From: an uncultured Eubacteriales bacterium
Lineage (GTDB): Bacteria > Bacillota > Clostridia > Oscillospirales > Acutalibacteraceae
NCBI GenBank assembly: GCA_934444365.1
Contig: CAKSCM010000009.1
Span: 1-64,000 of the forward strand
DNA: 64,000 nucleotides
Direction: 5' to 3'
The first letter of the stretch is position 1; each line of letters opens with the position of its first letter. Below are positions 1 to 26,397 of this stretch, in pieces. The notes beneath the pieces are model-generated. The model was not told the DNA's origin, searched no databases, and saw only the letters and a program-made list of their open reading frames with translations. The position numbers were made by a program, and so were the translations under genes.

Positions 1-270
1 TCCACCCGGATAACAGAATCATTTCCGGTCATTTTCAGCATGTATCCGTTGAGATCAAGAGTGACGGTACGGGTCACATTAAATGCCTCGTCGGTAACAA
101 TGTCTTTTGCCAGCCTGATGCTCGGTACGGCGTTGTCTGCCAGGGCATTTTTCAGTTCCGCCGCACTTGAGACATTCTTAAATGTCTCCCCCTCGGCAAA
201 TACGCCTGTCGGCACAATGCAGAACACCATACATAGGGCAAGCAGGATACTGATCAGTCGTTTCTTCATT
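1..270 (-). CDS. Secreted/lipoprotein-like hypothetical protein, 3' portion truncated by the window edge. N-terminal signal peptide MKKRLISILLALCMVFCIV.
   Basis: The reverse-strand ORF starts at ATG 268-270 and encodes a hydrophobic signal peptide followed by a polar domain. It runs off the window start. Confidence 0.5.
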
Positions 271-301
271 TCTTGCTACCTCCGTTTTCGTATATGTCGG
301 C

Positions 302-1693
302 TCAGTCAAGAGCGGTTATTGTAATGGTGCCGCTGAACCCCTCAAGAAGTGTATTGTATTCCGATTGCTCAAATAAAAATTTCAATGTTATATCTCTGGC
401 TGATGCGTCATACATTCTGTTGAAGTTAAAGAAATGATAGTCGTTACTATACGGAAGTTTTGTTCCATCTCTTTTTATGCGTGTAATATTCCTGCAAAAA
501 TCTGCATCCTCACTGCTGTCTGTCATTTGGATGCCATAAAAACCGCTGTTATCGGAAGCGTTTGAGCTGACTCCCAGAGAGCCGCTTATGGTGATATTGT
601 ATATATGTCCCTTTTTCAGTGTAATTTCATTTGCGGAAGCTGAAATCAAACCGCCTTTGTTTATTTTTGTGGTAAATTCAAATCTTGCGGCATGGTTTTG
701 AAGAAGAGCTGTCCCTATTGACGCTTTTGCATGAAAATACCCGGAGCTTCCGCCGTTCTGGCCGGTGTCGCCCTTGTCGCCTTTATCTCCTTTATCGCCT
801 TTGTCACCTTTTTCGCCGATGTCGCCTTTGTCACCTTTTTCGCCGATGTCGCCTTTGTCACCCTTTTCGCCGACTGTTCCGGCCGCCTTTACCCCGGTGT
901 CGATTTCTCCGATCCACCAGTTGCCGTTCTCACCGATGAAGGGGGTGTTTCCGTCTTTCCCGTCAGAGCCGTTTATGCCGTTTGCTCCGTCCTTACCGTT
1001 GGATCCGTCTTTACCGTCTATGCCGTCGGCACCTTTCAATGCGGTAAGGTCATACAGGTTCAGCCATATTTCATCGCCGACATAACGCCACTGCAGGGTG
1101 TTTTCGTTCACGCGGAACTCCGGCGTTTTTCCGTCAGAGCCGTCAGCGCCGTTCTGTCCGGCGGGGCCTGTGATATCGGCTATCGCAACAAGGTTCTGCC
1201 ACTCGCCGCCCTCGTAACGCCACTGTATGTGGGTTTCGGCTCGCTGCACCTCTATGTTTTTGGCGTTTATGCCGTCTTTACCGTCGATACCGTTTTTACC
1301 GTCAACGCCGTTTATGCCGTCTTTTCCGTTTGTGCCGGCAATTCCGTCCTTGCCGTCTTTTCCATCGGCTCCGTCTTTTCCGTTTGTACCGTTTGTACCG
1401 TTTATTCCGTTCTTGCCGTCGGTGCCGTTAGAGCCGTCTTTACCGTCTGTGCCGTTCTTTCCGTTTTCTCCGGCAGTACCCGTAAGCTCGGTAAGTGCCA
1501 CAAGGTCGCGCCAATCAGCTTCATCGCTGTATTTCCACTGGATTGCCGTGCCGCTGTTTCGCACCTCCGGCATTACGGCACTTCTATTTGCCGCCTTGCT
1601 CCATCCTGCGGCAAGCACGATGCAAAGTGACAAGAGCACGGCGCAAAGCGCCAAAAGCGTACCTGTGAAAAGTTTTTTCCCTGTTTTCATCAT
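302..1693 (-). CDS. Collagen-like triple-helix repeat protein. It has an N-terminal signal/TM segment, four short W-rich spacer modules, and a C-terminal C1q/BclA-like globular domain.
   Basis: The 463-aa ORF contains long Gly-X-Y runs (GKDGSNGTDGKNGINGTNG...; GEKGDKGDIGEKGDKGD...). These are interrupted by three repeated ~25-aa 'QW(K/R)Y..W..L..L.G' modules. The ~150-aa non-collagenous C-terminus resembles a BclA/C1q-type jelly-roll domain. Confidence 0.75.
   Translation of the reverse strand: MMKTGKKLFTGTLLALCAVLLSLCIVLAAGWSKAANRSAVMPEVRNSGTAIQWKYSDEADWRDLVALTELTGTAGENGKNGTDGKDGSNGTDGKNGINGTNGTNGKDGADGKDGKDGIAGTNGKDGINGVDGKNGIDGKDGINAKNIEVQRAETHIQWRYEGGEWQNLVAIADITGPAGQNGADGSDGKTPEFRVNENTLQWRYVGDEIWLNLYDLTALKGADGIDGKDGSNGKDGANGINGSDGKDGNTPFIGENGNWWIGEIDTGVKAAGTVGEKGDKGDIGEKGDKGDIGEKGDKGDKGDKGDKGDTGQNGGSSGYFHAKASIGTALLQNHAARFEFTTKINKGGLISASANEITLKKGHIYNITISGSLGVSSNASDNSGFYGIQMTDSSEDADFCRNITRIKRDGTKLPYSNDYHFFNFNRMYDASARDITLKFLFEQSEYNTLLEGFSGTITITALD
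768..874. repeat. 27-bp tandem repeat array (about 3 to 4 copies) encoding GEKGDKGDI collagen repeats.
   Basis: Units at 794-820, 821-847 and 848-874 are near-identical to gtcgcctttgtcacctttttcgccgat. A degenerate copy precedes them. Confidence 0.8.
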
Positions 1694-1769
1694 CTTTCCT
1701 CCGTTCGGAATTGTTTATCACGGCGGAGTTTTGCGCCGCTGCCCACGCCGTAAATGAGCGGCGGTCGGC

Positions 1770-2363
1770 TTATGCTTGGTTTGCTTTGTACTTATCCAGA
1801 AACAGGGCAACTCCCTGCCTTAAGACATCCATCTGGGTTTTCAGGTAATACTCGTCCTCAAACATGGCATAGTGTACACAGGCGCGGACGAATATAAAGA
1901 TAAGAGGCGTGATGACCGTATAGGGAATACCGATCTTCGGCTCCAGCCGCTTGGCATACTCGGTATAGCGCTCGTTGACGCCTTCGAAAAATTTCTTGCC
2001 GTGCTCGATATACTTCGGGTGCGTATAGATCTGATACATCAGCCGATATTTCTTGCCGTGCTTTTTGGCCGTCCAATAAGGTACTTCTTTTATGAATCGG
2101 ACAACATCCTTTGGGTCTGTGGGAGCCATCTCCATGAAATCGTCCTCGAGCTTTTCCATACAGTATGCCGTTGACTCGATAATCAGCTCGTCAAGGTTTT
2201 TGAAATACGAATACAGGTTTGCCTTTGTGCAGCCGCACGCATCGGCAAGCGCTTTGATTCCCGTACCCGTCAGACCGTTTTCGGCATAGCATTCAAAGCA
2301 TTCCTCCATCATTTCGCGCTTGCGCGCGTTGTGCCGCTCCTCTGTCGCTCTCATATACGCCAC
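1770..2363 (-). CDS. TetR/AcrR-family transcriptional regulator.
   Basis: N-terminal TetR HTH (ECFECYAENGLTGTGIKALADACGCTKANLYSYFKNLDEL). Size 197 aa. Confidence 0.85.
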   Translation of the reverse strand: MAYMRATEERHNARKREMMEECFECYAENGLTGTGIKALADACGCTKANLYSYFKNLDELIIESTAYCMEKLEDDFMEMAPTDPKDVVRFIKEVPYWTAKKHGKKYRLMYQIYTHPKYIEHGKKFFEGVNERYTEYAKRLEPKIGIPYTVITPLIFIFVRACVHYAMFEDEYYLKTQMDVLRQGVALFLDKYKANQA

Positions 2364-2376
2364 CTCCTTTTTGATA

Positions 2377-2392
2377 ACTAAACGTTCAGTTA
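2377..2392. promoter_or_regulatory. Imperfect 16-bp palindrome (aactaaacgttcagtt) immediately upstream of the TetR start. Putative autoregulatory operator.
   Basis: Palindrome seen in sequence, 14 bp upstream of the TetR start codon. Assignment as operator is inference. Confidence 0.35.
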
Positions 2393-2948
2393 ATTATAAT
2401 ATAGTATAGTGTAGCATAGAATTATGACAAATTCAAGAACCAACTGCAAAACGATGCAAAAAAAGCGGGACAGCCGCAATAAATCGACTTTCCCGCCGTC
2501 CGTTATTTTCGGAGCGCTAAAAATTTTTGTTTACAACCGTAGTGCCGGTAACGGCGCCAACATAATAAATGCACGACTCTTTTTGTCAGTAATCCCATTT
2601 AAGCCTGATTTTGCTATTCCTGCTCAGCTAAAATCTGTTGCGATGTCTTCCTTGTCAACCTTCGTGCAACCTGTGCAGAAACAAAAGCCGCCATTCGGTT
2701 TATCCTGATTTTTCGAATAACATTTTACAAGGGGCAGTCTGTCAATTTATAATTTTCGCTCGGAATATCGCCTCCAGTTTCGTTTTTCACTTAAAAGAAG
2801 TGCATCTTCTCTTACCTTTTTTAATCGGTAAGAAAAGACGCTTTCTTTACATTTCGAGACACGATTTTAAGCAATATCGTCGGTTTAAGTCCTGTTACAC
2901 CGATAAACCCGCGATTTTAGCCATGAAAGATGAATTCAGAATGATAAA

Positions 2949-2990
2949 CAAAAAAACGGTGACCCCCCTTGAAAATCAAGGGGGGTCACC
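2949..2990 (-). terminator. Rho-independent terminator for tRNA-Gly.
   Basis: Perfect 13-bp stem ggtgacccccctt / aaggggggtcacc with a 6-nt loop. On the minus strand it is followed by a U-run (A-run 2949-2956 on plus). Confidence 0.8.
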
Positions 2991-3016
2991 GTATGTTCCA
3001 CATCGTGGAGTAATGA

Positions 3017-3091
3017 TGGAGCGGGAAACGGGGATCGAACCCGCGACATCCGGCTTGGGAAGCCGACGTTCTACCGCTGAACTACTCCCGC
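3017..3091 (-). tRNA. tRNA-Gly (anticodon CCC).
   Basis: The reverse complement folds as a cloverleaf: acceptor GCGGGAG, D-arm GTTC/GAAC, anticodon loop UUCCCAA, T-loop GGGTTCGATCC, encoded CCA. Confidence 0.85.
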
Positions 3092-3106
3092 ATAAATTGC
3101 TTTGTG

Positions 3107-3135
3107 ATTATACCACAATTAATTTAAAAAATCAA
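3107..3135 (-). promoter_or_regulatory. Sigma-A-type promoter for tRNA-Gly.
   Basis: Read on the minus strand: TTGATT, 17-bp spacer, TATAAT. It lies ~10 to 35 nt upstream of the tRNA 5' end. Confidence 0.55.
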
Positions 3136-3710
3136 TACCTTGTTACGGGAATTGCTGTTATCAGGTGCAATTTGACCCTATGTTCGCTACCGGAAAGCCG
3201 ATAACTGTCACATATGTGATTTATTTGCCTTTTTACAAAATGTAAAGCTGATAATATACAAAAAAGGAATTATTTGGCTGGGGTTTTATTTACATAATTT
3301 AATCAGTATATTTTTTATACCGACCGTTATTCCACATTTTCCACAGAGTTTTCAACAGCCCTCAATCATGCATTATTACTATACTTTTGGCGTTTTTGTG
3401 ATTTTTGACCACGCTCCGCGATCGAATATTCGGTTAATTTCCGTAATTTAAAATGATTTACATAATCTGATTTTTTGTAATTTTCTTCTATGCAAATATT
3501 ACAAATAGTATTATTGGATTTCAGGTCAAAAAATACGGTTTTCAGGTCAAAAAAACAGTACAGTCGCCTGAAAAAATCAAGTGACCGTACTATTAAAATA
3601 TGACCTTGTATTTTTGGCCTTACAAAAGAGCCCTTAGTCGGCTCGGATTGGCAAAATCAGGTTAAATCGAGCGCGTTGAGTCGAGCCGTTCTGAGTTAAG
3701 CCGAACTGAC

Positions 3711-11732: not shown

Positions 11733-12914
11733 CTACGACTTGCTTACACCGCTGCACCGCGACACCGAAAGCACAATCCCCATTTCACCCATTATCATGA
11801 GCAGCGCCGTACCGCCGTAGCTGAAAAACGGAAGGCTTATACCGGTATTCGGAATGGTGTTGGTAACAACGAGAATATTAAGAAGCATCTGCAGTCCGAC
11901 CTGGAACACAATTCCTATAACAAGCATTGAGCCGAACCTGTTCGGACAGCGAATCGCTATTAAGACACCGCGCCAAATAAGCACACCGAAGGCCGCGACT
12001 ATGCAAAGCGCTCCTACAAAGCCAAGCTCCTCGCACACTATACTGAAAATAAAGTCGTTTTGAGGCTCGGGCACCCAAAGATATTTCTGACGTGACATCC
12101 CGAGTCCTCTGCCCCAGAATCCGCCCGAGCCGATAGCGAGCAGCGACTGTATGGTCTGATACCCCTTGCCGGTTGCGTCGGCCCACGGATCGATCCAGTA
12201 TTTTATACGGTCGCTTCCGTATCCGACAACACCCGAAAGTATTGCTACGGCGCCTATAACCACCGTTCCTCCGCCGGCGAGAACGAGCCATCTGAGCTTT
12301 ATTCCGCCGACGATTAAAAGAACGATCGATATAAGAAGTATAAGTATTGTAGCCGAAAGATGCGGTTCCACAACCACAAGACCGCACGTCACGGCTAGTA
12401 TTCCCAAAAAGGGCAGTATACCGTACTTAAAGGTACCCATTTTTTTGACCCCGAACTTGGAGGCGAGGTAGGATATGATAAGTATTACGGCAAATTTCGC
12501 AATTTCGGAGGGCTGAAAGGTAAAGGAACCTATTTTGATCCATCGCTTATAATCGAACCCCTCACTCATGGGCGGCAATATAAGCACCACAGCCAAAAGC
12601 GCAAGCGAAAAAAAGAAGAGTATCCAGGGTAATTTGTACTTTGCATAAAAATTAAAATCGATATAAGAAATACCGACCATTGCAACAACGCCGATAACGG
12701 CATATTTTGCCTGATTAAGGATAAAAAGATAGCTGTTGCCGTAATTGTAATAGGCAAAGGCATAGCTTGCCGACGCCAGCATTATAAGTCCCGTTGTAAG
12801 CAACACAAGCACCATTATAAAGAAGACAAGATCCATGCGTCCGCGCCTTGTACGTTTTTCGGACGACACTCGCCTTTGCGCCTGTTCCATTAATTCATTT
12901 TCGGGCGAATACAT
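11733..12914 (-). CDS. SEDS-family peptidoglycan glycosyltransferase FtsW/SpoVE.
   Basis: Polytopic membrane protein, 393 aa, with SEDS-like conserved C-terminal region. Lies between mraY and murG. Confidence 0.85.
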   Translation of the reverse strand: MYSPENELMEQAQRRVSSEKRTRRGRMDLVFFIMVLVLLTTGLIMLASASYAFAYYNYGNSYLFILNQAKYAVIGVVAMVGISYIDFNFYAKYKLPWILFFFSLALLAVVLILPPMSEGFDYKRWIKIGSFTFQPSEIAKFAVILIISYLASKFGVKKMGTFKYGILPFLGILAVTCGLVVVEPHLSATILILLISIVLLIVGGIKLRWLVLAGGGTVVIGAVAILSGVVGYGSDRIKYWIDPWADATGKGYQTIQSLLAIGSGGFWGRGLGMSRQKYLWVPEPQNDFIFSIVCEELGFVGALCIVAAFGVLIWRGVLIAIRCPNRFGSMLVIGIVFQVGLQMLLNILVVTNTIPNTGISLPFFSYGGTALLMIMGEMGIVLSVSRCSGVSKS

Positions 12915-15529: not shown

Positions 15530-17803
15530 TTATTCAACGCTGTCGCTGTATCTGAAATATACCGTAACCACTGTTCCGGCCTCAACCTCGGTGCCCGGTT
15601 CTACGCTTTGTTTGTACGACACCGAGCCGCTTTCTCCGCTTACCACACCGGACATTTCAAGGTTAACGCCGGCTGTTTTCGCAGCGGATTTAACCTCTGA
15701 AACGCTTAAATTCTTTAAATCCGGAACCGTAACGGTAGCCGCCGACTGCGACTCATCGGTGTATATTACAACGGTCGAGCCGGTCGGTGCGGTCTGGGAT
15801 GCAAGCGGCATTTGTCTTACAACCGCCGTTCCCTCTCCCACCGTCTTGACCTTAAAGCCGCTGCCTTCAAGCTGAGCCTTCGCCTCATCAATGCTGCTGC
15901 CTATAACCGACGGAACCTTAACGTTAAGGGCCGTATATTCGTCCTCGGTGTATATCGGCTCTATACCGAGATACGGCAACGCCTCCGACATTATAGACGC
16001 CGCAACCGGTGCCGAAACCTTACTTCCGTATATCGAATCGCCGTGCGGCTCATCGACCATTACAAATACGGCGATTTCCGGATCGTCGGCCGGAGCAAAT
16101 CCGCAGAATGAAGCGATATAAAGCATTTGTCCGGTCTCTTTTTTCTTATCGACCTTTTGGCTTGTTCCGGTTTTTCCGGCCATACGATATCCGGCAACAT
16201 ATCCGTTTTTACCGGTGCCGTTCGCAACGACCGATTCAAGCATACCGCATATTTTTTTAGAGGTCGATTCCGAAATAACCTGACGTTTTACATCGGTATC
16301 ATAGCTTTTTACAATATTACCGTCGGTATCGATTATCTGTTTTACCATGTGGGGCTTTACAAGATATCCGCCGTTAGCCGCCGCACATACCGCCGTTATC
16401 ATCTGTATGGGGGTTATTCTGAAGGTCTGGCCGAAGGACTCGGAGGCGAGCTCTACCGGGCCCATATTTTCCGAGGTATAGTAAATTCCGGTCGCCTCTC
16501 CGGGCAGATCTATATTTGTCATGGTTGTAAAGCCGAAGGACTTAAAATAGCTGTAAAAAAGGTCGACGCCGAGGCGCTGTCCTATTTCTATAAAGGCCGG
16601 GTTGCAGGAATTTTCAAATATCTGGGTCAAATTCTGAGTCCCGTGTCCCGACGTAACATGACAGTTATATTTTGTATCGTATATGCTTATATATCCCGGG
16701 CAATTAAAGGTCGAATCCATGCTGACCTTGCCCTCTTCAAGACCGGCCGAACCGGTGATTATCTTAAAAACCGATCCGGGCTCATAGGTGTCGGATATCG
16801 CCTTGTTACGCCACTGCTCCTGCAGCGCCGCACTGTATTTTTCGGTATATTCGTCGCCGCTGTAGTTTTTAAGTTCCTCGGCTACGGCAGAATCGGCTAT
16901 CGTAAAGGGTGAATTCGGATCGTAGTCGCCTTTGGTAGTCATGGCAAGTATCTCGCCGGTATTTACATTCATTACTATACAGCAGCCGCGATTGCTCGCC
17001 GAATTCGACTGCACCGCCTCTTCAAGATACTTTTCGGCATAGTGCTGTATATATTCGTCCAGGGTCGAAACAACCGAATATCCCGGCTGGGACTCGACCA
17101 TGGTCTCGTATTTAAAGGGCATGTCGCTGCCTCGGGCATTCTTTGAGGATACGGTCTTTCCGGGAATTCCGGTCAAATCGCTGTCGTACTGATATTCAAG
17201 TCCGGCAAGACCCTGGTTGTCGTCGCCGACAAATCCGAGCACCGTCGATCCGAGGGTTCCGTTCGGATAATAACGCTTGCTCGCCTTATCAAGACCTACC
17301 ACCGAACCGAGCTTATTATCGCTTATAAAGGCCCTTACCTCATCCGCCAAATTCTGCTCGACCCGTTGCTTTATCTTCTCATAGGCCGTATTTTTTTGTG
17401 TTTTTAAATAAACAGCCTCCTCGTCAAGCTCCAAAAGTTGGGACAGTCCCGAGGCAATAAGCCTTGCTTCCTCATCGTCTTCGATATTCTTAGGCGTAAC
17501 ATATACGGTATAAACGGTAGCGCTCGTCGCAAGAATGTTCATGTTCCGGTCGTAAATGTTTCCGCGCTGAGCGGCAACGGTGGTGGTCGTAAGCTGCTGT
17601 TCGGTGGCGATTTTCGAGTAATAACCGCCGTTTATCAGCATAATATCAGCAAGCCGTACCCCTATTGTGCCGAAACCGACAACGAGTACAGCCATCATTA
17701 ACCAGAACATTCTTTTCCACATTGATCTCGGAGTTACGCTTTTCAAAACCGCACCGACCCTTCTTCTCTCCAAAGCTCCGCCTTTGATACTATGAAAAAT
17801 CAA
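15530..17803 (-). CDS. Class B penicillin-binding protein (FtsI/PBP2B/SpoVD-type transpeptidase) with C-terminal PASTA domains.
   Basis: 757 aa. N-terminal TM, dimerisation and transpeptidase domains (SxxK, SxN, KTG motifs), and two C-terminal PASTA-like repeats. Confidence 0.85.
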   Translation of the reverse strand: MIFHSIKGGALERRRVGAVLKSVTPRSMWKRMFWLMMAVLVVGFGTIGVRLADIMLINGGYYSKIATEQQLTTTTVAAQRGNIYDRNMNILATSATVYTVYVTPKNIEDDEEARLIASGLSQLLELDEEAVYLKTQKNTAYEKIKQRVEQNLADEVRAFISDNKLGSVVGLDKASKRYYPNGTLGSTVLGFVGDDNQGLAGLEYQYDSDLTGIPGKTVSSKNARGSDMPFKYETMVESQPGYSVVSTLDEYIQHYAEKYLEEAVQSNSASNRGCCIVMNVNTGEILAMTTKGDYDPNSPFTIADSAVAEELKNYSGDEYTEKYSAALQEQWRNKAISDTYEPGSVFKIITGSAGLEEGKVSMDSTFNCPGYISIYDTKYNCHVTSGHGTQNLTQIFENSCNPAFIEIGQRLGVDLFYSYFKSFGFTTMTNIDLPGEATGIYYTSENMGPVELASESFGQTFRITPIQMITAVCAAANGGYLVKPHMVKQIIDTDGNIVKSYDTDVKRQVISESTSKKICGMLESVVANGTGKNGYVAGYRMAGKTGTSQKVDKKKETGQMLYIASFCGFAPADDPEIAVFVMVDEPHGDSIYGSKVSAPVAASIMSEALPYLGIEPIYTEDEYTALNVKVPSVIGSSIDEAKAQLEGSGFKVKTVGEGTAVVRQMPLASQTAPTGSTVVIYTDESQSAATVTVPDLKNLSVSEVKSAAKTAGVNLEMSGVVSGESGSVSYKQSVEPGTEVEAGTVVTVYFRYSDSVE

Positions 17804-22420: not shown

Positions 22421-23680
22421 TCAGAACTTTCCGCCGCCACCGCCGTGCGTTGTACCCGACGATGAGGTATGTGTGCTGCTTCCGCCGGAGCTTGAGGAAT
22501 CATTATCCTTCGGCTTAGCCGTACGGCTGACCGTAGAATAAAGGAACATATCACGGCTCTCGCGGACATTCATGCTGCCGGGCTTTACATAGCTGTCGGC
22601 CGCCGCCGCAAAGCTAACGCTCCTTAACTTGCTCTTCATACCGCCGACAACCGCCGACGCAATAAGAATCCCTACGACAAGGGAGATCGGTATCCATATG
22701 AGTGAGAGCGGATCATGCGGTAAGTTGCCGACATCGTACGGCTTTCCGGTTTCGACCGCATTTGTCACAAAACGATCTACCTCGTTTGCATATATCCTGA
22801 AGGCCTCGGCATAATCGCCGTCGGAAAGATAACCGGTAAATTTGTCGGCAATATACTCCCTTCCGGCATCGGTAATGGCGGCAATTCCGTAGCCGGTAGT
22901 GGTAATATACCAATCCCTGTCCTCCATGCTTATAAGAAAGAGCACACCGTCCTTGTTTTCGCCGAACCCGAATCCGCTGTAATCATAAAGATCGTCGGCA
23001 TACTCTCTGGGCGTTTTCCCCGAGAGGGAATTGACGGTGGCTATAACAACGTCGAACTTCTGGCGCTCGCTTATCTCGTCAAGCTTGGCCTTTATTTCGG
23101 CCGCTTCGTCACTGCTGAGCAAGCCTGCCTCGTCCATAAGTCTCGGATATGTGCTTTGCGACACCTTGCTTTGAGCACCCGAGGTTACACTGCCGGTTCC
23201 GGCTGCAGACGAACGGGAAATTATGCTTTTTGCCGAGTTCAGATACGCCGTAAATCCGTCGGCATAGCTCATCTCATAGTTATATGCATCCCAAAAGCCT
23301 TCACAGTCGGCATTTGTAAACATACCGTCGCATTTGCCGGTTTTCCGAACAACGTATTCACCCTCATCCTCGTTAAGGACAAGCATAACGGAGTCCTGTT
23401 TACTAATACCTATTCCGCCGTAATTTTCGGCATATTTTCCGAGGCTGTTCGCTCCCTGATGATAGTCGTCGGTTATGAGCATTAAAACCTCAATACCGTA
23501 CTCGTCATATATGTCGTCGGCAAGCTCGTTTGCAGCGTCAAGAGCGGCATCCGGCGCATTCATGGTCTCATCGATAAAATACTTTGCCCCGTCGGCGCCT
23601 GTCATCACCGAAAAAGACGCAAGCGAGACGAGCACCGCAACCAAAAGGATAAAAATTGATTTAAGCTTTTTACCGGTCAT
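22421..23680 (-). CDS. TPM-domain (DUF477) membrane protein, YdjH/YgcG-like, with tandem TPM regions and a Gly/Ser-rich C-terminal tail.
   Basis: Signal/TM N-terminus, two TPM-like blocks, a C-terminal TM, then a GGSSTHTSSSGTTHGGGGG tail. GGAGG RBS at the chosen start. Confidence 0.65.
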   Translation of the reverse strand: MTGKKLKSIFILLVAVLVSLASFSVMTGADGAKYFIDETMNAPDAALDAANELADDIYDEYGIEVLMLITDDYHQGANSLGKYAENYGGIGISKQDSVMLVLNEDEGEYVVRKTGKCDGMFTNADCEGFWDAYNYEMSYADGFTAYLNSAKSIISRSSAAGTGSVTSGAQSKVSQSTYPRLMDEAGLLSSDEAAEIKAKLDEISERQKFDVVIATVNSLSGKTPREYADDLYDYSGFGFGENKDGVLFLISMEDRDWYITTTGYGIAAITDAGREYIADKFTGYLSDGDYAEAFRIYANEVDRFVTNAVETGKPYDVGNLPHDPLSLIWIPISLVVGILIASAVVGGMKSKLRSVSFAAAADSYVKPGSMNVRESRDMFLYSTVSRTAKPKDNDSSSSGGSSTHTSSSGTTHGGGGGKF

Positions 23681-23694
23681 ATTTTCATCCTCCC

Positions 23695-24789
23695 TTAAAG
23701 TATTCCGGCAAGCCAGAGCAGCCATGCTATTAAATATGTAGCGCCGCCGGCGATAAGGGTTACAAGCCACCGCCATTTTCTTGCGGCCGCTTTATCCACC
23801 GGGAGGTTGCCAACAAATTTGCCGGTTTGACCGTTCATGGCGAAAATGTACCTTTCGCCCTTCCATGTGGTGTTAAGAATCCACACCGGATACAGCGCAT
23901 ATCGCGCGTGGCCGTTGCTCAGGGATATACCCGAGCTTTCCGGAACAACGCTCGAATACCCCTGCACCGTTTTTTGAAACGCCTGCTCGGTCGAGTGTTT
24001 TACACGCTCGTCGGCACGGGTTATGCTCTGCTCGGACGAAACGTCGTATTTATCCGCCATGTAACCGGCAAGATAGGCCGTCTGGAACTCCTTTACGTCG
24101 GCAAAATCATACGGCTCAACCGATTCCATAAGATCATCCGGCATTTTCGACGAGCCGTCAACCGGAACATGCTCAAAGCTGATACTACCGGCCCTATGCA
24201 CAAGAAAATAGCTGGTTTCGGTGTAATCGTAATCGCTGTCGCTCCAAAACCTAACCTTGGTCGCACGGTAGCGTATGGTCGCATCCGCATCGGTATCAAA
24301 AAGCCAGAACGGAACATATACACCCTTTATCTCGTCAATGTGGTTTTCATCCTTAAAGACCTTAGGCAAAAGCCTCTTGCCCTTAAGATGATTGGAAAAT
24401 CCAGCCTTGGCGGCATTTTTATCGAGTTTAAACGGAATTATAAAATCCGGTTTCAGCGCACCCGAAAGCTTACCGGTCATAACCACCGGATTCGAGCAAT
24501 ACGGGCAGGTTGACGCCGCCGTATTTTCGTCGCACACAATTTCGCCGCCGCATGAATTACAAACATAGGTACAAAGCCCGTCGGCCTCGCCCGAAGACCA
24601 CTGTGCGCCCGGGGTATTCTCCCAGTTCATGTTATCCGAGATATCGTTTTTCAACTCGGCATCGTAATTCTTAAGCGTTTCAAGCTCAAATTCGGTGTCG
24701 CAATAAGGACACTTCATTTTTTGCAGCGCACTGTCAAACGCAATCGCACCGCCGCAACACGGGCACTTGTACTCCAGTAAATCGGACAT
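23695..24789 (-). CDS. Double-zinc-ribbon membrane-anchored protein (YdjG-like).
   Basis: Two N-terminal CxxC...CxxC ribbons (CPCCGG..CPYCD; CNSCGG..CPYCS), a central globular region, and a C-terminal TM helix. 14-bp gap to the TPM gene. Confidence 0.6.
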   Translation of the reverse strand: MSDLLEYKCPCCGGAIAFDSALQKMKCPYCDTEFELETLKNYDAELKNDISDNMNWENTPGAQWSSGEADGLCTYVCNSCGGEIVCDENTAASTCPYCSNPVVMTGKLSGALKPDFIIPFKLDKNAAKAGFSNHLKGKRLLPKVFKDENHIDEIKGVYVPFWLFDTDADATIRYRATKVRFWSDSDYDYTETSYFLVHRAGSISFEHVPVDGSSKMPDDLMESVEPYDFADVKEFQTAYLAGYMADKYDVSSEQSITRADERVKHSTEQAFQKTVQGYSSVVPESSGISLSNGHARYALYPVWILNTTWKGERYIFAMNGQTGKFVGNLPVDKAAARKWRWLVTLIAGGATYLIAWLLWLAGIL

Positions 24790-25056
24790 CTGCATATCCC
24801 CTTTTCAAAAAAACTAAATGCTGCACCAACCATAAAAACGTCAAAAGCTCAGGTGTTTTCTGAACGCATGACGGTCCTTCTCCTTCACGATACAGCATAA
24901 TGACCGCAAATATAAACCATATAAATTATATTCGCGGCCATTTGATCTGATTAATGTAGTTAAGTATTGCACCCGAATTAAGTATATCGCCCAAAAAATA
25001 AGCTTTTTCGGATAAACGGTATTCTCCTTTTTCAGATGCAACAAAAATATTTTAAA

Positions 25057-26397
25057 TTACTGTTTGTCGTTATCGTCGAAAACGTCGCCGCACTCAGGGC
25101 AGAACTTCGGCGGATGGGTGGGATCCTCCGGCTGCCAGCCGCATTTATCGCAGCGGTAAAGCGGTGCGCCTTCAGGCTTTTTAGCTCCGCAATTCTGGCA
25201 GAACTTGCCTTTATTGACTGCTCCGCACGAGCAGGTCCATCCTTCTTCGGCCGGTTTTTTTGCTCCGCATTCGGTGCAGAAATTACCCGTCGCCACAGCG
25301 CCGCACGAGCATTTCCAGCCGCCCGGCTGATTAGCTGCCGGCGCGCTCTTTGCGGCCGATTGCTGTGCAGCCGCCTGCTGTGCCGCTTGCTGCTGGCTCA
25401 TAGCGTAAAGATCCTGTGCATTAACGCCGCCGGTATTCATGGCCATCCCCATGCCCATAAATCCGGTAAAAGCACCTGCTTCATTCGATGCTGCCGCCTT
25501 CATGGCGTCGGCCTGAGCGCCGACCAGGGTTGCAGCAGCCATGCCGGGATCGCGCATCATACCGGTGCGCTGCGCCTGCTTTATCATATCGGCGTCTTCC
25601 TGCGGCAAATCGACATTGCTCAGCGCAATGCTCACTATCTTAAGACCTCTGAGCTCGCCCCATTTGTTTGAGAGCGTCTCGTTCATCGCATCTTCCAGCT
25701 CGGCATTATGCGCGGCGATTTGATTCGGACGCATTTCAAGCTCCGACAGCTTTGCAAGAGCCGGACGCAAAGCGCTTATGAATTCTGATTTGAGCTGTTT
25801 ATCAAGCTCCTCGCGGCGGTATTCGTCGCTGACATTACCGCAGACGTTGGTGTAAAAGAGTATCGGGTCGGCAATACGGTAAGAATAAACACCCGAGCAG
25901 CGTACCGAAACATCGACATCGAGACCTATTTTCGAATCGACCACACGGAAAGGAACGGGACTCGGAGTGCCGAAAAGATTTTCAAGCAGCTCCTTGGTGT
26001 TGAAGTAATAAACCCTCTGATCCTTGGCGGTATCTCCTCCGTAGGTAAAGCGCTTACCGATGGTTTTAAAGGTGTTTATTATCCCCTGTCCGAGTTTGCC
26101 GGCAAAAAGGCTCGGCTCGGTAGAAGAATCATATGTATACTCACCCGGCTCGGCGCAAAACTCAACCACCTTACCCTGTTCGACTATTATCATACACTGG
26201 CCGTCGGCAACGGCAATGCCCGAACCTCTCGAAATTATGTTGTCGTTGCCCTTGGTATTGGACGAACGGCCGCTTATCTGTTTACGGCCCTTTACCATAA
26301 GCACTTCCTTGTCAAGCGCCTCACAATAGAAAAATTCCTTCCACTGGTCGGCAAGGGTACCGCCTAAGGCTCCGACTCCGGCTTTTATAAGACCCAT
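25057..26397 (-). CDS. SPFH/Band-7 domain protein (COG4260 'virion core protein'-like, YdjI-like). It has a Gln/Ala-rich linker and four C-terminal zinc ribbons.
   Basis: N-terminal SPFH-like region and a QQAAQQAAAQQ linker. Then CSCG..CTECG, CSCG..CQNCG and CDKCG..CPECG ribbons. Confidence 0.65.
   Translation of the reverse strand: MGLIKAGVGALGGTLADQWKEFFYCEALDKEVLMVKGRKQISGRSSNTKGNDNIISRGSGIAVADGQCMIIVEQGKVVEFCAEPGEYTYDSSTEPSLFAGKLGQGIINTFKTIGKRFTYGGDTAKDQRVYYFNTKELLENLFGTPSPVPFRVVDSKIGLDVDVSVRCSGVYSYRIADPILFYTNVCGNVSDEYRREELDKQLKSEFISALRPALAKLSELEMRPNQIAAHNAELEDAMNETLSNKWGELRGLKIVSIALSNVDLPQEDADMIKQAQRTGMMRDPGMAAATLVGAQADAMKAAASNEAGAFTGFMGMGMAMNTGGVNAQDLYAMSQQQAAQQAAAQQSAAKSAPAANQPGGWKCSCGAVATGNFCTECGAKKPAEEGWTCSCGAVNKGKFCQNCGAKKPEGAPLYRCDKCGWQPEDPTHPPKFCPECGDVFDDNDKQ

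What the first reader, a model, noticed from the sequence alone, without database searches (positions are those of the whole stretch)
302..1693. Signal-peptide-bearing collagen-like protein with four W-rich spacer modules, a 27-bp tandem repeat tract and a C1q/BclA-like head
Gly-X-Y runs are interrupted three times by a conserved ~25-aa module: IQW(K/R)Y..(D/E).W..L.A(L/I).(E/D)(L/I)TG. A fourth WWIGEIDTG variant also occurs. The protein ends in a globular domain resembling the BclA/C1q jelly-roll used by exosporium filaments and phage tail fibres. Unlike BclA it has an N-terminal signal/TM segment. The GEKGDKGDI tract is encoded by near-perfect 27-bp tandem repeats at 768-874, which makes length variation by slippage likely. 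In a spore-former this could be an exosporium or surface filament protein with strain-variable length.
Basis: partly seen in the sequence, partly recalled or inferred. Interest (0 to 1): 0.55.

Follow-up and report, generated by a model that had tools for sequence, protein, structure and literature searches.

The report
Membrane-anchored collagen-like fibre with TNF-like head
This gene from a human-gut Clostridia chromosome encodes a protein tethered to the cell membrane at one end, with a variable-length collagen-like stalk built from phage-tail-fibre-type modules and a TNF/C1q-shaped knob at the other end; it is most likely a cell-surface binding fibre rather than a spore-coat or phage part, and is an undescribed variant of a known kind of protein.

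Summary
Window 302-1693 (minus strand) is a real 463-aa gene. It has an N-terminal hydrophobic anchor, 54 Gly-X-Y triplets in four tracts, three ~32-aa W-rich modules, one shorter WW module, a 27-bp repeat tract and a C-terminal globular domain.

The gene is not in a prophage. It lies next to a tRNA-Gly, dnaD/dnaI-like genes and the cell-division/wall cluster.

About 100 distinct full-length relatives occur in human-gut Oscillospiraceae, including Ruminococcus bromii. Many carry a canonical lipoprotein lipobox where the window protein has Trp and a longer hydrophobic helix. The family is therefore membrane-tethered and exported, unlike BclA.

A TetR-family gene with a conserved sigma-70-type promoter sits directly upstream in most loci. 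A hypervariable adhesin-like gene follows.

Stalk length varies from 9 to 102 triplets across the family, and from 15 to 32 in one tract among near-identical alleles. The W modules also occur in genuine phage tail fibres.

Verdict: a cell-surface collagen-like fibre, probably a ligand-binding adhesin, and a new variant of a known kind. The exosporium reading is unlikely. Its function has not been tested.

The parts
302..1693 (-). Complete CDS of the collagen-like fibre protein (463 aa; stop codon at 302-304; the likely true start is the second ATG at 1690, giving MKTGKK as in relatives)
1604..1672 (-). N-terminal hydrophobic anchor (aa 8-30, LFTGTLLALCAVLLSLCIVLAAG, followed by W31). It is read as an uncleaved signal-anchor. 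The equivalent position in 31 of 82 distinct relatives' N-termini is a lipobox Cys.
1478..1573 (-). W module A (aa 41-72, MPEVRNSGTAIQWKYSDEADWRDLVALTELTG). Predicted as three beta strands plus a short helix, pLDDT about 80-85.
1265..1480 (-). Collagen tract 1 (aa 72-143, 24 Gly-X-Y triplets). This is the most length-variable tract among close alleles.
1166..1258 (-). W module B (aa 146-176, NIEVQRAETHIQWRYEGGEWQNLVAIADITG)
1124..1168 (-). Collagen tract 2 (aa 176-190, GPAGQNGADGSDGKT, 5 triplets). Its length is nearly invariant: the B-linker-C unit is 76 aa in 69 of 81 distinct instances.
1031..1126 (-). W module C (aa 190-221, TPEFRVNENTLQWRYVGDEIWLNLYDLTALKG)
944..1033 (-). Collagen tract 3 (aa 221-250, 10 triplets)
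878..946 (-). Module D (aa 250-272, TPFIGENGNWWIGEIDTGVKAAG). A shorter three-strand module that is also found in phage-fibre-like proteins.
746..880 (-). Collagen tract 4 (aa 272-316, 15 triplets, GEKGDKGD type, holding all nine KGD/KGE triplets of the stalk). It contains the 27-bp tandem repeat units at 764-871.
305..745 (-). C-terminal head (aa 317-463), predicted TNF/C1q-like jelly-roll. There is no C-terminal anchor; the protein ends ...ITITALD.
1770..2354 (-). TetR-family regulator gene (194 aa from the ATG at 2354), 76 nt upstream and co-directional. It is conserved next to the fibre gene in 22 of 32 genome loci at 69-93% aa identity.
2374..2436 (-). Conserved sigma-70-type promoter (-35 TTGAAT at 2431-2436, 17-nt spacer, -10 region), followed by a candidate dyad-symmetric operator TTAACTGAACGTTTAGTTAT at 2374-2393
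   Evidence: the dyad's statistical support is weak
1..269 (-). Start of the downstream gene, cut by the window edge. It has a signal peptide MKKRLISILLALCMVFCIVPTGVFA. It is 60% identical over 87 aa to a 776-aa protein of a related locus that carries a pectate-lyase-like adhesive domain and Listeria-Bacteroides repeats.

Best explanation
The gene encodes an exported, N-terminally membrane-tethered, homotrimeric collagen-like fibre of the vegetative cell envelope.

How it is built:
- The N-terminal hydrophobic helix holds the protein in the cytoplasmic membrane. In this genome it acts as a signal-anchor; in many relatives the tether is a lipid-modified Cys.
- Four proline-poor, charge-rich Gly-X-Y tracts form a triple-helical stalk of roughly 46 nm. 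That is long enough to cross a Gram-positive wall.
- Three ~32-aa W modules and one WW module are small three-stranded beta units of a type also used in phage tail-fibre shafts. They punctuate the stalk and probably act as trimeric registration or re-nucleation nodes, or as hinges.
- The C-terminal TNF/C1q-like trimeric head nucleates trimer folding and is displayed distally as the ligand-binding tip. A glycan or another surface receptor is the most likely ligand.

How it is expressed and how it varies:
- The gene is probably transcribed together with the upstream TetR-family gene from a sigma-70-type promoter. This would make display of the fibre conditional on an unknown small-molecule signal.
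- Stalk length drifts by gain and loss of 9-, 18- and 27-bp repeat units.
- The head diverges much faster than the regulator and the stalk modules.

Shown: the architecture, the fold prediction, conservation, chromosomal context and length variation.

Inferred: trimerisation, surface exposure, ligand binding, TetR control and the role of the W modules.
For: Architecture and its conservation: (102 distinct full-length relatives; 88 have three W modules and 83 have module D).

Anchor: 31 of 82 distinct N-termini carry a canonical lipobox and 43 carry the long-helix W type. L081 and L094 are lipobox versions of a window-like N-terminus. AlphaFold predicts a helix at residues 9-36.

Head fold:
- The second model has head pLDDT about 90. 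Its Foldseek probability is 1.0 to 4-1BBL, BAFF, APRIL, the TNF-like lectins PLTL and BC2L-C, and BclA.

W modules:
- They are predicted as three strands plus a short helix, pLDDT 71-85.
- They are found in the annotated tail fibre gp33 of Erwinia phage Fifi011.
- They match phrog_19976 at E 6e-12.

Context:
- The neighbours are chromosomal: TetR, tRNA-Gly, DnaI/DnaD-like genes, FtsZ, FtsQ, MurA, MurG, FtsW and MraY.
- TetR is conserved directly upstream, and the -35/-10 elements are conserved.
- The downstream gene is adhesin-like.

Length:
- Alleles whose non-collagen parts are 95-98% identical have 15-32 triplets in tract 1.
- The family-wide range is 9-102 triplets.

Stalk length estimate: 162 residues x 0.286 nm, consistent with the 0.28 nm/residue used for F-BclA (PMC12357932).
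Against: - There is no experimental or expression evidence of any kind.
- Surface exposure is inferred from topology only.
- The window protein lacks the lipobox Cys, so cleavage by signal peptidase I and release from the cell cannot be excluded.
- The ligand is unknown. The head has no sequence-level match to any lectin or to any Pfam or NCBIfam model.
- Both structure models are monomers, so trimerisation of the head and modules was not modelled.
- Statistical support for the candidate operator is weak: best dyad 6.1 of 8 against 5.7 in shuffles.
- 10 of 32 genome loci lack the TetR gene.
- Length differences come mostly from short-read assemblies, which can mis-assemble repeats.
Confidence: 0.55

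Rival explanations
1. Spore-surface or exosporium hair, like BclA, C. difficile BclA1-3 or the F-BclA/L-BclA tip fibrils. In this reading the fibre is made during sporulation and decorates the spore.
For: - The layout is the same: a collagen stalk with a C-terminal C1q/TNF-like head. BclA and F-BclA are among the top structural matches.
- The stalk length is variable, as in BclA and F-BclA (PMC12357932).
- The carrier lineage includes spore-formers. SpoVD-like and SpoVE-like genes lie in the window's cell-division/wall cluster, though both score below the NCBIfam cut-offs.
Against: - The family has a Sec-type N-terminus (lipobox or signal-anchor). BclA-type proteins are assembled in the mother-cell cytoplasm through an N-terminal exosporium leader or an ENA-docking motif, and no such motif is visible here.
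- The stalk has 1 Pro and only 3 of 54 Thr in the Y position, so it is not GPT-rich.
- No glycosyltransferase lies in the conserved block.
- The promoter is sigma-70-like with an extended -10 and lies behind a TetR-family gene.
- There is no sequence-level match to BclA models.
Confidence: 0.1
2. A phage-related element. It could be a remnant or domesticated prophage tail fibre. Its present role could be phage-related, for example masking or mimicking a phage receptor (superinfection exclusion), rather than adhesion.
For: - Every building block is of a phage-fibre type: collagen, the W module (Erwinia phage Fifi011 gp33; phrog_19976), module D (phrog_32509/9525) and the TNF-like tip.
- The head diverges fast while the regulator is conserved, as expected in an arms race.
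- Membrane-anchored lipoproteins that block phage entry are known. This last point rests on my own background knowledge, not on a tool result.
Against: - There are no phage genes around the gene in the window or in related loci.
- The head occurs in none of 50,697 phage records except MT838201.1. That record is a bacterial fragment (DapA, DapB, TetR and the fibre gene) mislabelled as phage.
- PADLOC gives no hits.
- The two family heads joined to phage-like N-termini (P0037, P0047) sit on 1.5-2.6x coverage contigs whose junction falls inside the collagen tract. They are probably assembly chimeras.
Confidence: 0.12
3. A self-directed structural or aggregation fibre. In this reading the head binds the bacterium's own wall or capsule polymers, or a neighbouring cell of the same species. 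The fibre then acts as an envelope spacer or a cell-to-cell clumping factor rather than binding host or dietary ligands.
For: - F-BclA and L-BclA tips promote spore-to-spore clustering (PMC12357932).
- The gene sits in a locus of large variable surface proteins.
- Stalk length tracks lineage, which would fit tuning to envelope thickness.
Against: Nothing here separates this reading from binding to foreign ligands. The fast head divergence fits an external or antagonistic ligand at least as well.
Confidence: 0.15

Closest known systems
BclA-type exosporium and endospore-appendage collagen-like proteins (B. anthracis BclA; F-BclA/L-BclA tip fibrils; C. difficile BclA1-3)
   Different: - The N-terminus is a Sec signal-anchor or lipobox, not an exosporium leader or ENA-docking peptide.
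- The stalk is Pro- and Thr-poor and K/D/N-rich.
- The stalk is interrupted by W modules.
- No glycosyltransferase is linked to the gene.
- A TetR-family gene and a sigma-70-type promoter lie upstream.
- There is no sequence-level similarity of the head.
Phage collagen-like tail fibres and minor tail proteins with C1q/TNF-like tips (e.g. the cyanophage A-1(L) short fibre 8ke9; PHROG 'collagen like minor tail'; Erwinia phage Fifi011 gp33 for the W module)
   Same: It uses the same parts: collagen repeats, the W module, the NGNWWIG module and a jelly-roll tip.
   Different: - The gene is chromosomal and not in a tail module.
- The N-terminus is a membrane anchor rather than a virion-attachment domain.
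- This particular head is absent from sequenced phage genomes.
Streptococcal Scl1/Scl2 and other anchored bacterial collagen-like adhesins (Lcl, PclA)
   Same: The design logic is the same: a cell-anchored collagen stalk of variable length projects a variable globular domain away from the cell. This is the functional analogy I favour.
   Different: - The polarity is opposite. Scl proteins have an N-terminal V domain and a C-terminal LPXTG wall anchor. This protein has an N-terminal membrane anchor and a C-terminal head.
- The NCBIfam scores are far below the cut-offs (91.5 against 325; 71.7 against 400) and come from the collagen part only.
Ectodysplasin-A and other type II membrane TNF ligands; animal membrane collagens with interrupted triple helices (MACITs)
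   Different: Sequence identity is 4-13% and no homology is detectable, so this is an analogy only. The relatives are mostly lipoproteins, and the W modules have no counterpart in EDA.
TNF-like bacterial lectins (Burkholderia BC2L-C N-terminal domain, Photorhabdus PLTL)
   Same: Both have a trimeric TNF-like jelly-roll. The Foldseek probability is 1.0. This suggests a glycan-binding tip.
   Different: Those lectins are soluble and have no collagen stalk. Their fucose-binding residues were not compared, and there is no sequence similarity.

Membership tests
BclA / exosporium collagen-like glycoproteins | C-terminal C1q/TNF-like jelly-roll trimerisation domain | tested here: met
BclA / exosporium collagen-like glycoproteins | Cytoplasmic N-terminal exosporium leader (or ENA-docking peptide) and no secretion signal | tested here: not met
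   The N-terminus is a 23-residue hydrophobic segment following MKTGKK. Relatives have lipoboxes. The definition of the leader is taken from PMC12357932.
BclA / exosporium collagen-like glycoproteins | Thr-rich (GPT/GXT) stalk that is O-glycosylated, with linked glycosyltransferase genes | tested here: not met
   There is 1 Pro in 162 stalk residues, and Thr occupies the Y position in 3 of 54 triplets. The conserved block (window ~186-2478) holds only the tetR-family gene, the fibre gene and the start of an adhesin-like gene. MurG and MraY in the window are peptidoglycan enzymes. Glycosylation itself cannot be tested here.
BclA / exosporium collagen-like glycoproteins | Sporulation-specific (mother-cell sigma factor) expression and location on the spore | not testable with these tools
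   The only indirect evidence is the conserved TTGAAT-17-TGnTATACT sigma-70-type promoter upstream of the tetR-fibre gene pair.
Scl1/Scl2-type LPXTG collagen-like adhesins | C-terminal LPXTG sortase signal, N-terminal V domain, and a family HMM score above the cut-off | tested here: not met
   The protein ends ...ITITALD with no LPXTG. NF038329 scores 91.5 against a cut-off of 325 and NF038330 scores 71.7 against 400, both on collagen stretches only.
Phage tail fibre / collagen-like minor tail protein | Encoded in a phage or prophage tail-gene module | tested here: not met
   The neighbours are TetR, tRNA-Gly, DnaI/DnaD-like genes and the cell-division/wall cluster. Related loci also lack phage genes. 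The only 'phage' record with this head is a mislabelled bacterial fragment.
Phage tail fibre / collagen-like minor tail protein | Shaft and tip modules shared with phage fibres | tested here: met
   PHROG tail-fibre families match at E down to 1e-27. The B-C module unit matches phrog_19976 at E 6e-12. W modules occur in Erwinia phage Fifi011 gp33. BFVD structure matches are collagen-plus-C1q minor tail proteins.
Bacterial lipoproteins (Lgt/Lsp substrates) | Lipobox [LVI][ASTVI][GAS]-C at the end of the signal peptide | tested here: not met
   The window protein reads LAAG-W, with TGG (Trp) at the Cys position. 31 of 82 distinct N-termini in the family do have a lipobox, and 43 are of the W type with a longer hydrophobic helix. 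The family is therefore ancestrally a lipoprotein family, but this member is not a lipoprotein.
TNF/C1q structural superfamily | Ten-strand jelly-roll that forms a trimer | tested here: met
   The fold is met in two independent models and two search methods. Trimer formation was not modelled because only monomer predictions were available.
TetR-family-repressor-controlled operon | TetR_N helix-turn-helix regulator adjacent to its target, with a dyad operator overlapping the promoter | tested here: inconclusive
   - TetR_N matches at E 3.3e-7, above the cut-off.
- The gene is conserved upstream in 22 of 32 loci.
- The promoter is conserved, with a dyad at -36 to -42 from the ATG in about 26 of 40 sequences.
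- The dyad score is barely above shuffles, 6.1 against 5.7.
- Binding and co-transcription are not testable here.
T4 fibritin foldon (considered as a relative of the W module) | Detectable sequence or profile similarity to the 27-aa foldon | tested here: not met
   The hhalign probability is 0.7%. The module profile finds no fibritin in the PDB at E up to 10. Any likeness is functional analogy only.

The most novel reading that the evidence does not exclude
The family may be a domesticated phage receptor-binding fibre. In this reading, abundant human-gut Oscillospiraceae, including the keystone starch degrader Ruminococcus bromii, have re-tethered a phage-type fibre (collagen, W module and TNF-like tip) to their own membrane with a lipid or signal anchor. 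They have placed it under a small-molecule-responsive TetR-family switch. They diversify its tip and length by recombination and repeat slippage. The fibre would then be a switchable, EDA-like 'bacterial TNF-ligand-shaped' probe for host, dietary or microbial glycans or receptors. The W modules would be natural in-register re-nucleation nodes that let a proline-free collagen fold in segments.
Probability: 0.15. Interest if true: 0.75.

Novelty: new variant of a known kind. Interest (0 to 1): 0.45.

Why it matters
Collagen-like stalks with C1q/TNF-like heads are known from Bacillus and Clostridioides spores and from phage and giant-virus fibres. A membrane-tethered version on the cell of human-gut commensals does not appear in Pfam, NCBIfam or the literature searched here.

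If the fibre is displayed on vegetative cells, it is a candidate adhesin or recognition organelle of Ruminococcus bromii-group bacteria. It would also be a likely target of phages or IgA, which would explain the fast-evolving tip and the variable length.

The W modules are an undescribed, structurally unsolved shaft module shared with phage tail fibres. They could interest collagen engineers as natural trimer-registration units for proline-free triple helices. The conserved TetR-family partner gives a direct handle for finding the inducing signal.

Tried and rejected
1. Sequence-level family assignment of the head. Pfam, NCBIfam and a PDB sequence search returned only collagen matches. An exhaustive HMM search of 1.84 billion representatives found only 55 relatives, all in the same family.

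2. W module against solved structures. Only chance hits to RNase H appeared, at E about 0.4.

3. W module against the T4 foldon. hhalign gave probability 0.7%, so homology is rejected.

4. Pfam CFSR ('collagen-flanked surface repeat'). It does not match the window protein, and it matched one distant phage-like protein only weakly.

5. Prophage hypothesis. It is rejected by the genomic context. The single hit in the phage collection is a mislabelled bacterial fragment.

6. Family heads on phage-like N-termini (P0037, P0047) as proof of exchange between phage and host. These are not relied on. They lie on contigs of 1.5-2.6x coverage whose junction falls inside the collagen tract.

7. Defence-system models (PADLOC): no hits.

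8. Exact-sequence look-ups of the window proteins, to identify the source genome or extend the left flank: nothing on record.

The B-linker-C unit was used instead; every listed hit is under 150 aa, mostly fragments of family members on short contigs, plus some unrelated small proteins.

10. The AlphaFold-database fold library was unavailable.

11. A quantitative dyad-symmetry test of the candidate operator gave only marginal excess over shuffles.

12. An Rfam scan of window 1-3400 found only the tRNA.

13. Literature searches for this family in Ruminococcus, Ruminococcaceae or as lipoprotein collagen-like proteins found nothing specific.
Full report
OBSERVATION. Window 302..1693 holds one 463-aa ORF on the minus strand. 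A GGAGG ribosome-binding site lies just upstream of two adjacent ATG codons.
- A basic N-terminus (MMKTGKK) is followed by a 23-residue hydrophobic segment, with a Kyte-Doolittle 19-mer mean of up to 2.6.
- Fifty-four Gly-X-Y triplets lie in four tracts: aa 72-143, 176-190, 221-250 and 272-316. Pfam Collagen matches at E 2.7e-23.
- There are three IQW(K/R)Y / LQWRY modules and one NGNWWIGEIDTG module.
- Tandem Repeats Finder reports a 27-bp repeat over 761-873, 4.2 copies at 86% matches. Its first two in-frame units (818-871) are 26/27 identical.

Two refinements apply. The first module precedes tract 1 rather than interrupting a Gly-X-Y run. The conserved unit is about 32 aa, because it includes an upstream strand (xPEVR / xIEVQR / TPEFR).

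A SMALL, COHERENT FAMILY IN HUMAN-GUT CLOSTRIDIA.
- The C-terminal 153 aa found only 35 relatives among 5.8 billion clustered proteins, all unnamed.
- A profile search that read all 1.84 billion representatives found only 55 relatives. Where the matched protein is complete, the domain is C-terminal.
- A scan of one genome per species gave 32 loci. Most are Oscillospiraceae-type gut MAGs and isolates, including Ruminococcus bromii ATCC 27255, Ruminococcoides intestinale, Hominimerdicola aceti and Candidatus Fimenecus. A few bins carry other labels.
- Human-gut metagenomes gave 80 more loci.
- Across 102 distinct full-length proteins the plan is constant: anchor, W module A, collagen, W module B, a short collagen linker, W module C, collagen, module D, collagen, head. 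Eighty-eight have three W modules and 83 have module D.

THE N-TERMINUS IS A MEMBRANE TETHER.
- Of 82 distinct N-termini, 31 end in a canonical lipoprotein lipobox (...FAGC, ...SAGC, ...LAGC).
- Forty-three are of the window's type. In these the Cys position is Trp (LAAGW / LAIGW) and the hydrophobic stretch is longer, about 23 residues.
- The most divergent family members almost all have lipoboxes, so lipid anchoring looks ancestral.
- L081 and L094 (MMKTGRKLFAGALLVLYIVLAAGCNS) are lipobox versions of a window-like N-terminus.
- AlphaFold predicts a helix over residues 9-36.

I read the window protein as an uncleaved signal-anchor, N-in and C-out. Cleavage by signal peptidase I after AAG or SKA cannot be excluded from sequence. 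Either way the protein is exported. That separates it from BclA-type proteins. Those use a cytoplasmic N-terminal exosporium leader or an ENA-docking peptide, and the source reports no secretion signal for them (PMC12357932).

THE STALK.
- The four tracts contain one proline in 162 residues. They are dominated by K, D and N (X position: K 13, D 9; Y position: D 19, N 16).
- Tract 4 is of the GEKGDKGD type and holds all nine KGD/KGE triplets.
- KGD and KGE triplets are the salt-bridge motifs reported to stabilise triple helices. They are especially frequent in viral collagen-like proteins (PMC11923368).
- At 0.286 nm per residue the collagen part alone is about 46 nm long.
- In the full-length AlphaFold model the collagen tracts have low confidence, as expected for a monomer model.
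- Each W module is predicted as three short beta strands plus a helical turn, pLDDT 71-85. Module D is a shorter three-strand unit, pLDDT about 77.
- The modules have no Pfam model.
- No relative of the W module was found in the PDB, and the W module shows no detectable similarity to the T4 foldon.
- The W modules are nevertheless genuine phage-fibre modules. The B-linker-C unit matches phrog_19976 at E 6e-12. The annotated tail fibre gp33 of Erwinia phage Fifi011 carries three of them, two in direct tandem without collagen.
- Module D recurs in small phage-like proteins and in PHROG tail-fibre families.
- The linker between modules B and C is 5 triplets (GP.GQ.G.DG..GK) in 69 of 81 distinct instances. 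The other tracts vary freely. This invariance is unexplained.

THE HEAD.
- A second model from a deeper alignment has head pLDDT of about 90. Foldseek then gave probability 1.0 to 4-1BBL, BAFF, APRIL, the TNF-like lectins PLTL and BC2L-C, and BclA.
- In the viral structure library the best matches are collagen-plus-C1q minor tail proteins and giant-virus fibrils.

Sequence identity to all of these structures is 3-16%.

CONTEXT.
- Upstream on the same strand lie a TetR-family gene (1770-2354), a tRNA-Gly with a strong terminator, DnaI-like and DnaD-like genes and an HTH gene. Beyond them lie FtsZ, FtsQ, MurA, MurG, FtsW/SpoVE-like, MraY and a SpoVD-like PBP. This is core chromosome, not a prophage.
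- The TetR-family gene lies directly upstream of the fibre gene in 22 of 32 genome loci, at 69-93% identity.
- In every locus except L001 the TetR-family protein is better conserved than the head. Examples are L016 (TetR 93%, head 61%), L024 (86%, 45%) and L027 (79%, 31%).
- DNA similarity between the window and other loci stops at about 2440-2480 on one side. On the other side it stops at about 186-209, inside the signal peptide of the downstream gene.
- The conserved block is therefore promoter, tetR, fibre gene and the start of the next gene. It sits in different surroundings in different genomes.
- Forty aligned tetR upstream regions share a sigma-70-type promoter (CTTGAAt, 17 nt, TGnTATACT), followed by a roughly dyad-symmetric element 36-42 nt before the ATG.
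- The dyad's excess over shuffled sequence is marginal, 6.1 against 5.7 of 8, so I call it only a candidate operator.
- No promoter-like site and no T-tailed terminator was found in the 76-nt gap between tetR and the fibre gene. Co-transcription is plausible but unproven.
- The downstream gene always begins with the same signal peptide (MKKR[IL][IL]SILL.LCM...). Its mature part differs between genomes: Listeria-Bacteroides repeats, DUF6273, FG-GAP, DUF4988 or a pectate-lyase-like adhesive domain.
- The window's own truncated copy is 60% identical over 87 aa to the pectate-lyase-like type.
- No glycosyltransferase belongs to the conserved block.

LENGTH VARIATION.
- Total triplets range from 9 to 102 across the family, with a median of 41. 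R. bromii has the longest stalk.
- Among loci whose heads are 97-99% identical to the window's, tract 1 has 7-26 triplets, tract 3 has 8-18 and tract 4 has 12-17. Tract 2 stays at 5.
- In one lineage the non-collagen residues are 95-98% identical (286-295 of 301). There tract 1 runs from 15 to 32 triplets through internal blocks of repeats, while the other tracts are constant.
The hot spot among close alleles is tract 1 rather than the 27-bp tract.
- Caveat: most alleles come from short-read assemblies. Several independent assemblies do give identical alleles, which argues against pure artefact.

MECHANISM.
- Shown: an exported protein with an N-terminal membrane tether, a segmented collagen-type stalk, phage-type shaft modules, a C-terminal TNF/C1q-fold domain, chromosomal location, a linked TetR-family gene with a sigma-70-type promoter, and variable length.
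- Inferred from established knowledge of collagen and TNF/C1q proteins: the head trimerises and nucleates C-to-N zipping of the triple helix. The W modules form small trimeric beta nodes that re-register or re-nucleate the helix after each interruption, or act as hinges. The roughly 50-60 nm rod spans the wall and presents the head outside. The head binds a ligand, most plausibly a glycan, by analogy with phage fibre tips, BclA-type tips and TNF-like lectins.
- Fast head divergence together with conserved stalk modules and regulator fits diversifying pressure from phages, antibodies or ligand switching.
- I put 0.55 on this reading as a whole. Confidence is higher for the architecture and topology and lower for the adhesin function.
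- The rivals are a spore-surface hair (0.10), a phage-related role (0.12) and a self-directed structural or aggregation fibre (0.15).

COMPARISON AND NOVELTY.
- The closest known kinds are BclA-type fibres, which have the same stalk-plus-head layout but different targeting, composition and regulation.
- Phage collagen-like fibres use the same parts but in a different genomic setting and with a different N-terminus.
- Scl-type adhesins follow the same logic with opposite polarity and a different anchor.
- As an analogy only, type II membrane TNF ligands such as ectodysplasin-A have the same order of anchor, interrupted collagen and TNF head.
- The protein fails defining features of each of these families, so it is not filed as a member of any.
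- Nothing in the curated libraries or the searched literature describes a lipoprotein- or signal-anchored collagen-like protein with a TNF-like head in gut Clostridia.

I rate it a new variant of a known kind, of moderate interest.

Noticed in passing
L050:4495-6363 and L039:3016-5169 (related loci, the gene directly downstream of the fibre gene): The secreted protein begins, right after its signal peptide, with a ubiquitin-family domain (Pfam PF00240, 52-54.5 bits against a cut-off of 25.4; [43 protein letters not shown]). DUF6273 and DUF4988 follow in both loci, and collagen repeats in L039. An exported ubiquitin-like domain in a gut Clostridia surface protein is unusual.
   Followed up: partly
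window 186-269 (minus strand) and the equivalent position in L002-L016, L050, L070 and L093: The signal-peptide-coding start of the downstream gene (MKKR[IL][IL]SILL.LCM...) is conserved at DNA level between genomes. The mature protein behind it is completely different from genome to genome. This looks like cassette exchange that uses the signal-peptide segment as a homology arm.
   Followed up: partly
L033:1695-4462 and L034:1848-4462: Two fibre-gene paralogues lie in tandem behind one tetR-family gene. The first has the W-type anchor and the second a different signal peptide (…IFSAECGK). The second carries a head 99% identical to the window's. This points to mosaic recombination between N-terminal parts and heads.
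   Followed up: partly
L115 (MT838201.1, 'UNVERIFIED: Bacteriophage sp.', human faeces): This record in the phage collection encodes DapA-like and DapB-like genes, the TetR-family gene and a family member. It is a bacterial chromosome fragment mislabelled as phage.
   Followed up: yes
P0047 (L113:253-1338), P0037 (L114:1277-2428), P0071, P0024, P0033: These metagenomic ORFs join the family head to unrelated N-termini: phage-like, conjugation-ATPase-like, or the downstream gene's signal peptide. For P0047 and P0037 the junctions lie inside collagen repeats on contigs of 1.5-2.6x coverage. They could be assembly chimeras or real recombinants.
   Followed up: partly
window 1124-1168 (aa 176-190, GPAGQNGADGSDGKT): The collagen linker between W modules B and C is fixed at 5 triplets, with a conserved sequence (GP.GQ.G.DG..GK) and the only proline of the stalk. 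It holds in 69 of 81 distinct instances, while all other tracts vary in length. This suggests a structural or binding constraint, which is unexplained.
   Followed up: partly
L116:1805-4183 (Erwinia phage Fifi011 tail fibre gp33): This fibre carries three W modules (…HLQWRVVGDAEWIDLIALADL…, …YIQWRPEGTTQWFNLVALADLQG, …AIQWRVVGSTAWTDLVLLSTLKG). Two of them are directly tandem, without collagen between them. This short shaft module is widespread in phage fibres but has no Pfam model, and no relative was found in the PDB.
   Followed up: partly
window 2480-3091: A tRNA-Gly(CCC) at 3017-3091 is followed by a 17-bp-stem terminator (2956-2992). A stretch of about 480 bp follows in which nothing convincing was identified: there is no Rfam hit, and the only ORFs are two plus-strand ones, one of which overlaps the tRNA. 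The conserved tetR promoter comes next. Similarity to related loci ends inside this stretch, so it may mark the edge of the conserved gene block.
   Followed up: partly
window 11733-12914 and 15530-17803: The FtsW/SpoVE-like and SpoVD-like genes of the cell-division/wall cluster score best against the sporulation models (335 and 622 bits). Both fall below the curated cut-offs (449 and 688). The genome's ability to sporulate is therefore not settled from this window.
   Followed up: no
window 22421-26397: Three long minus-strand ORFs (22421-23776, 23695-24795, 25057-26397) gave no NCBIfam match at E up to 1e-10. They were not examined further.
   Followed up: no
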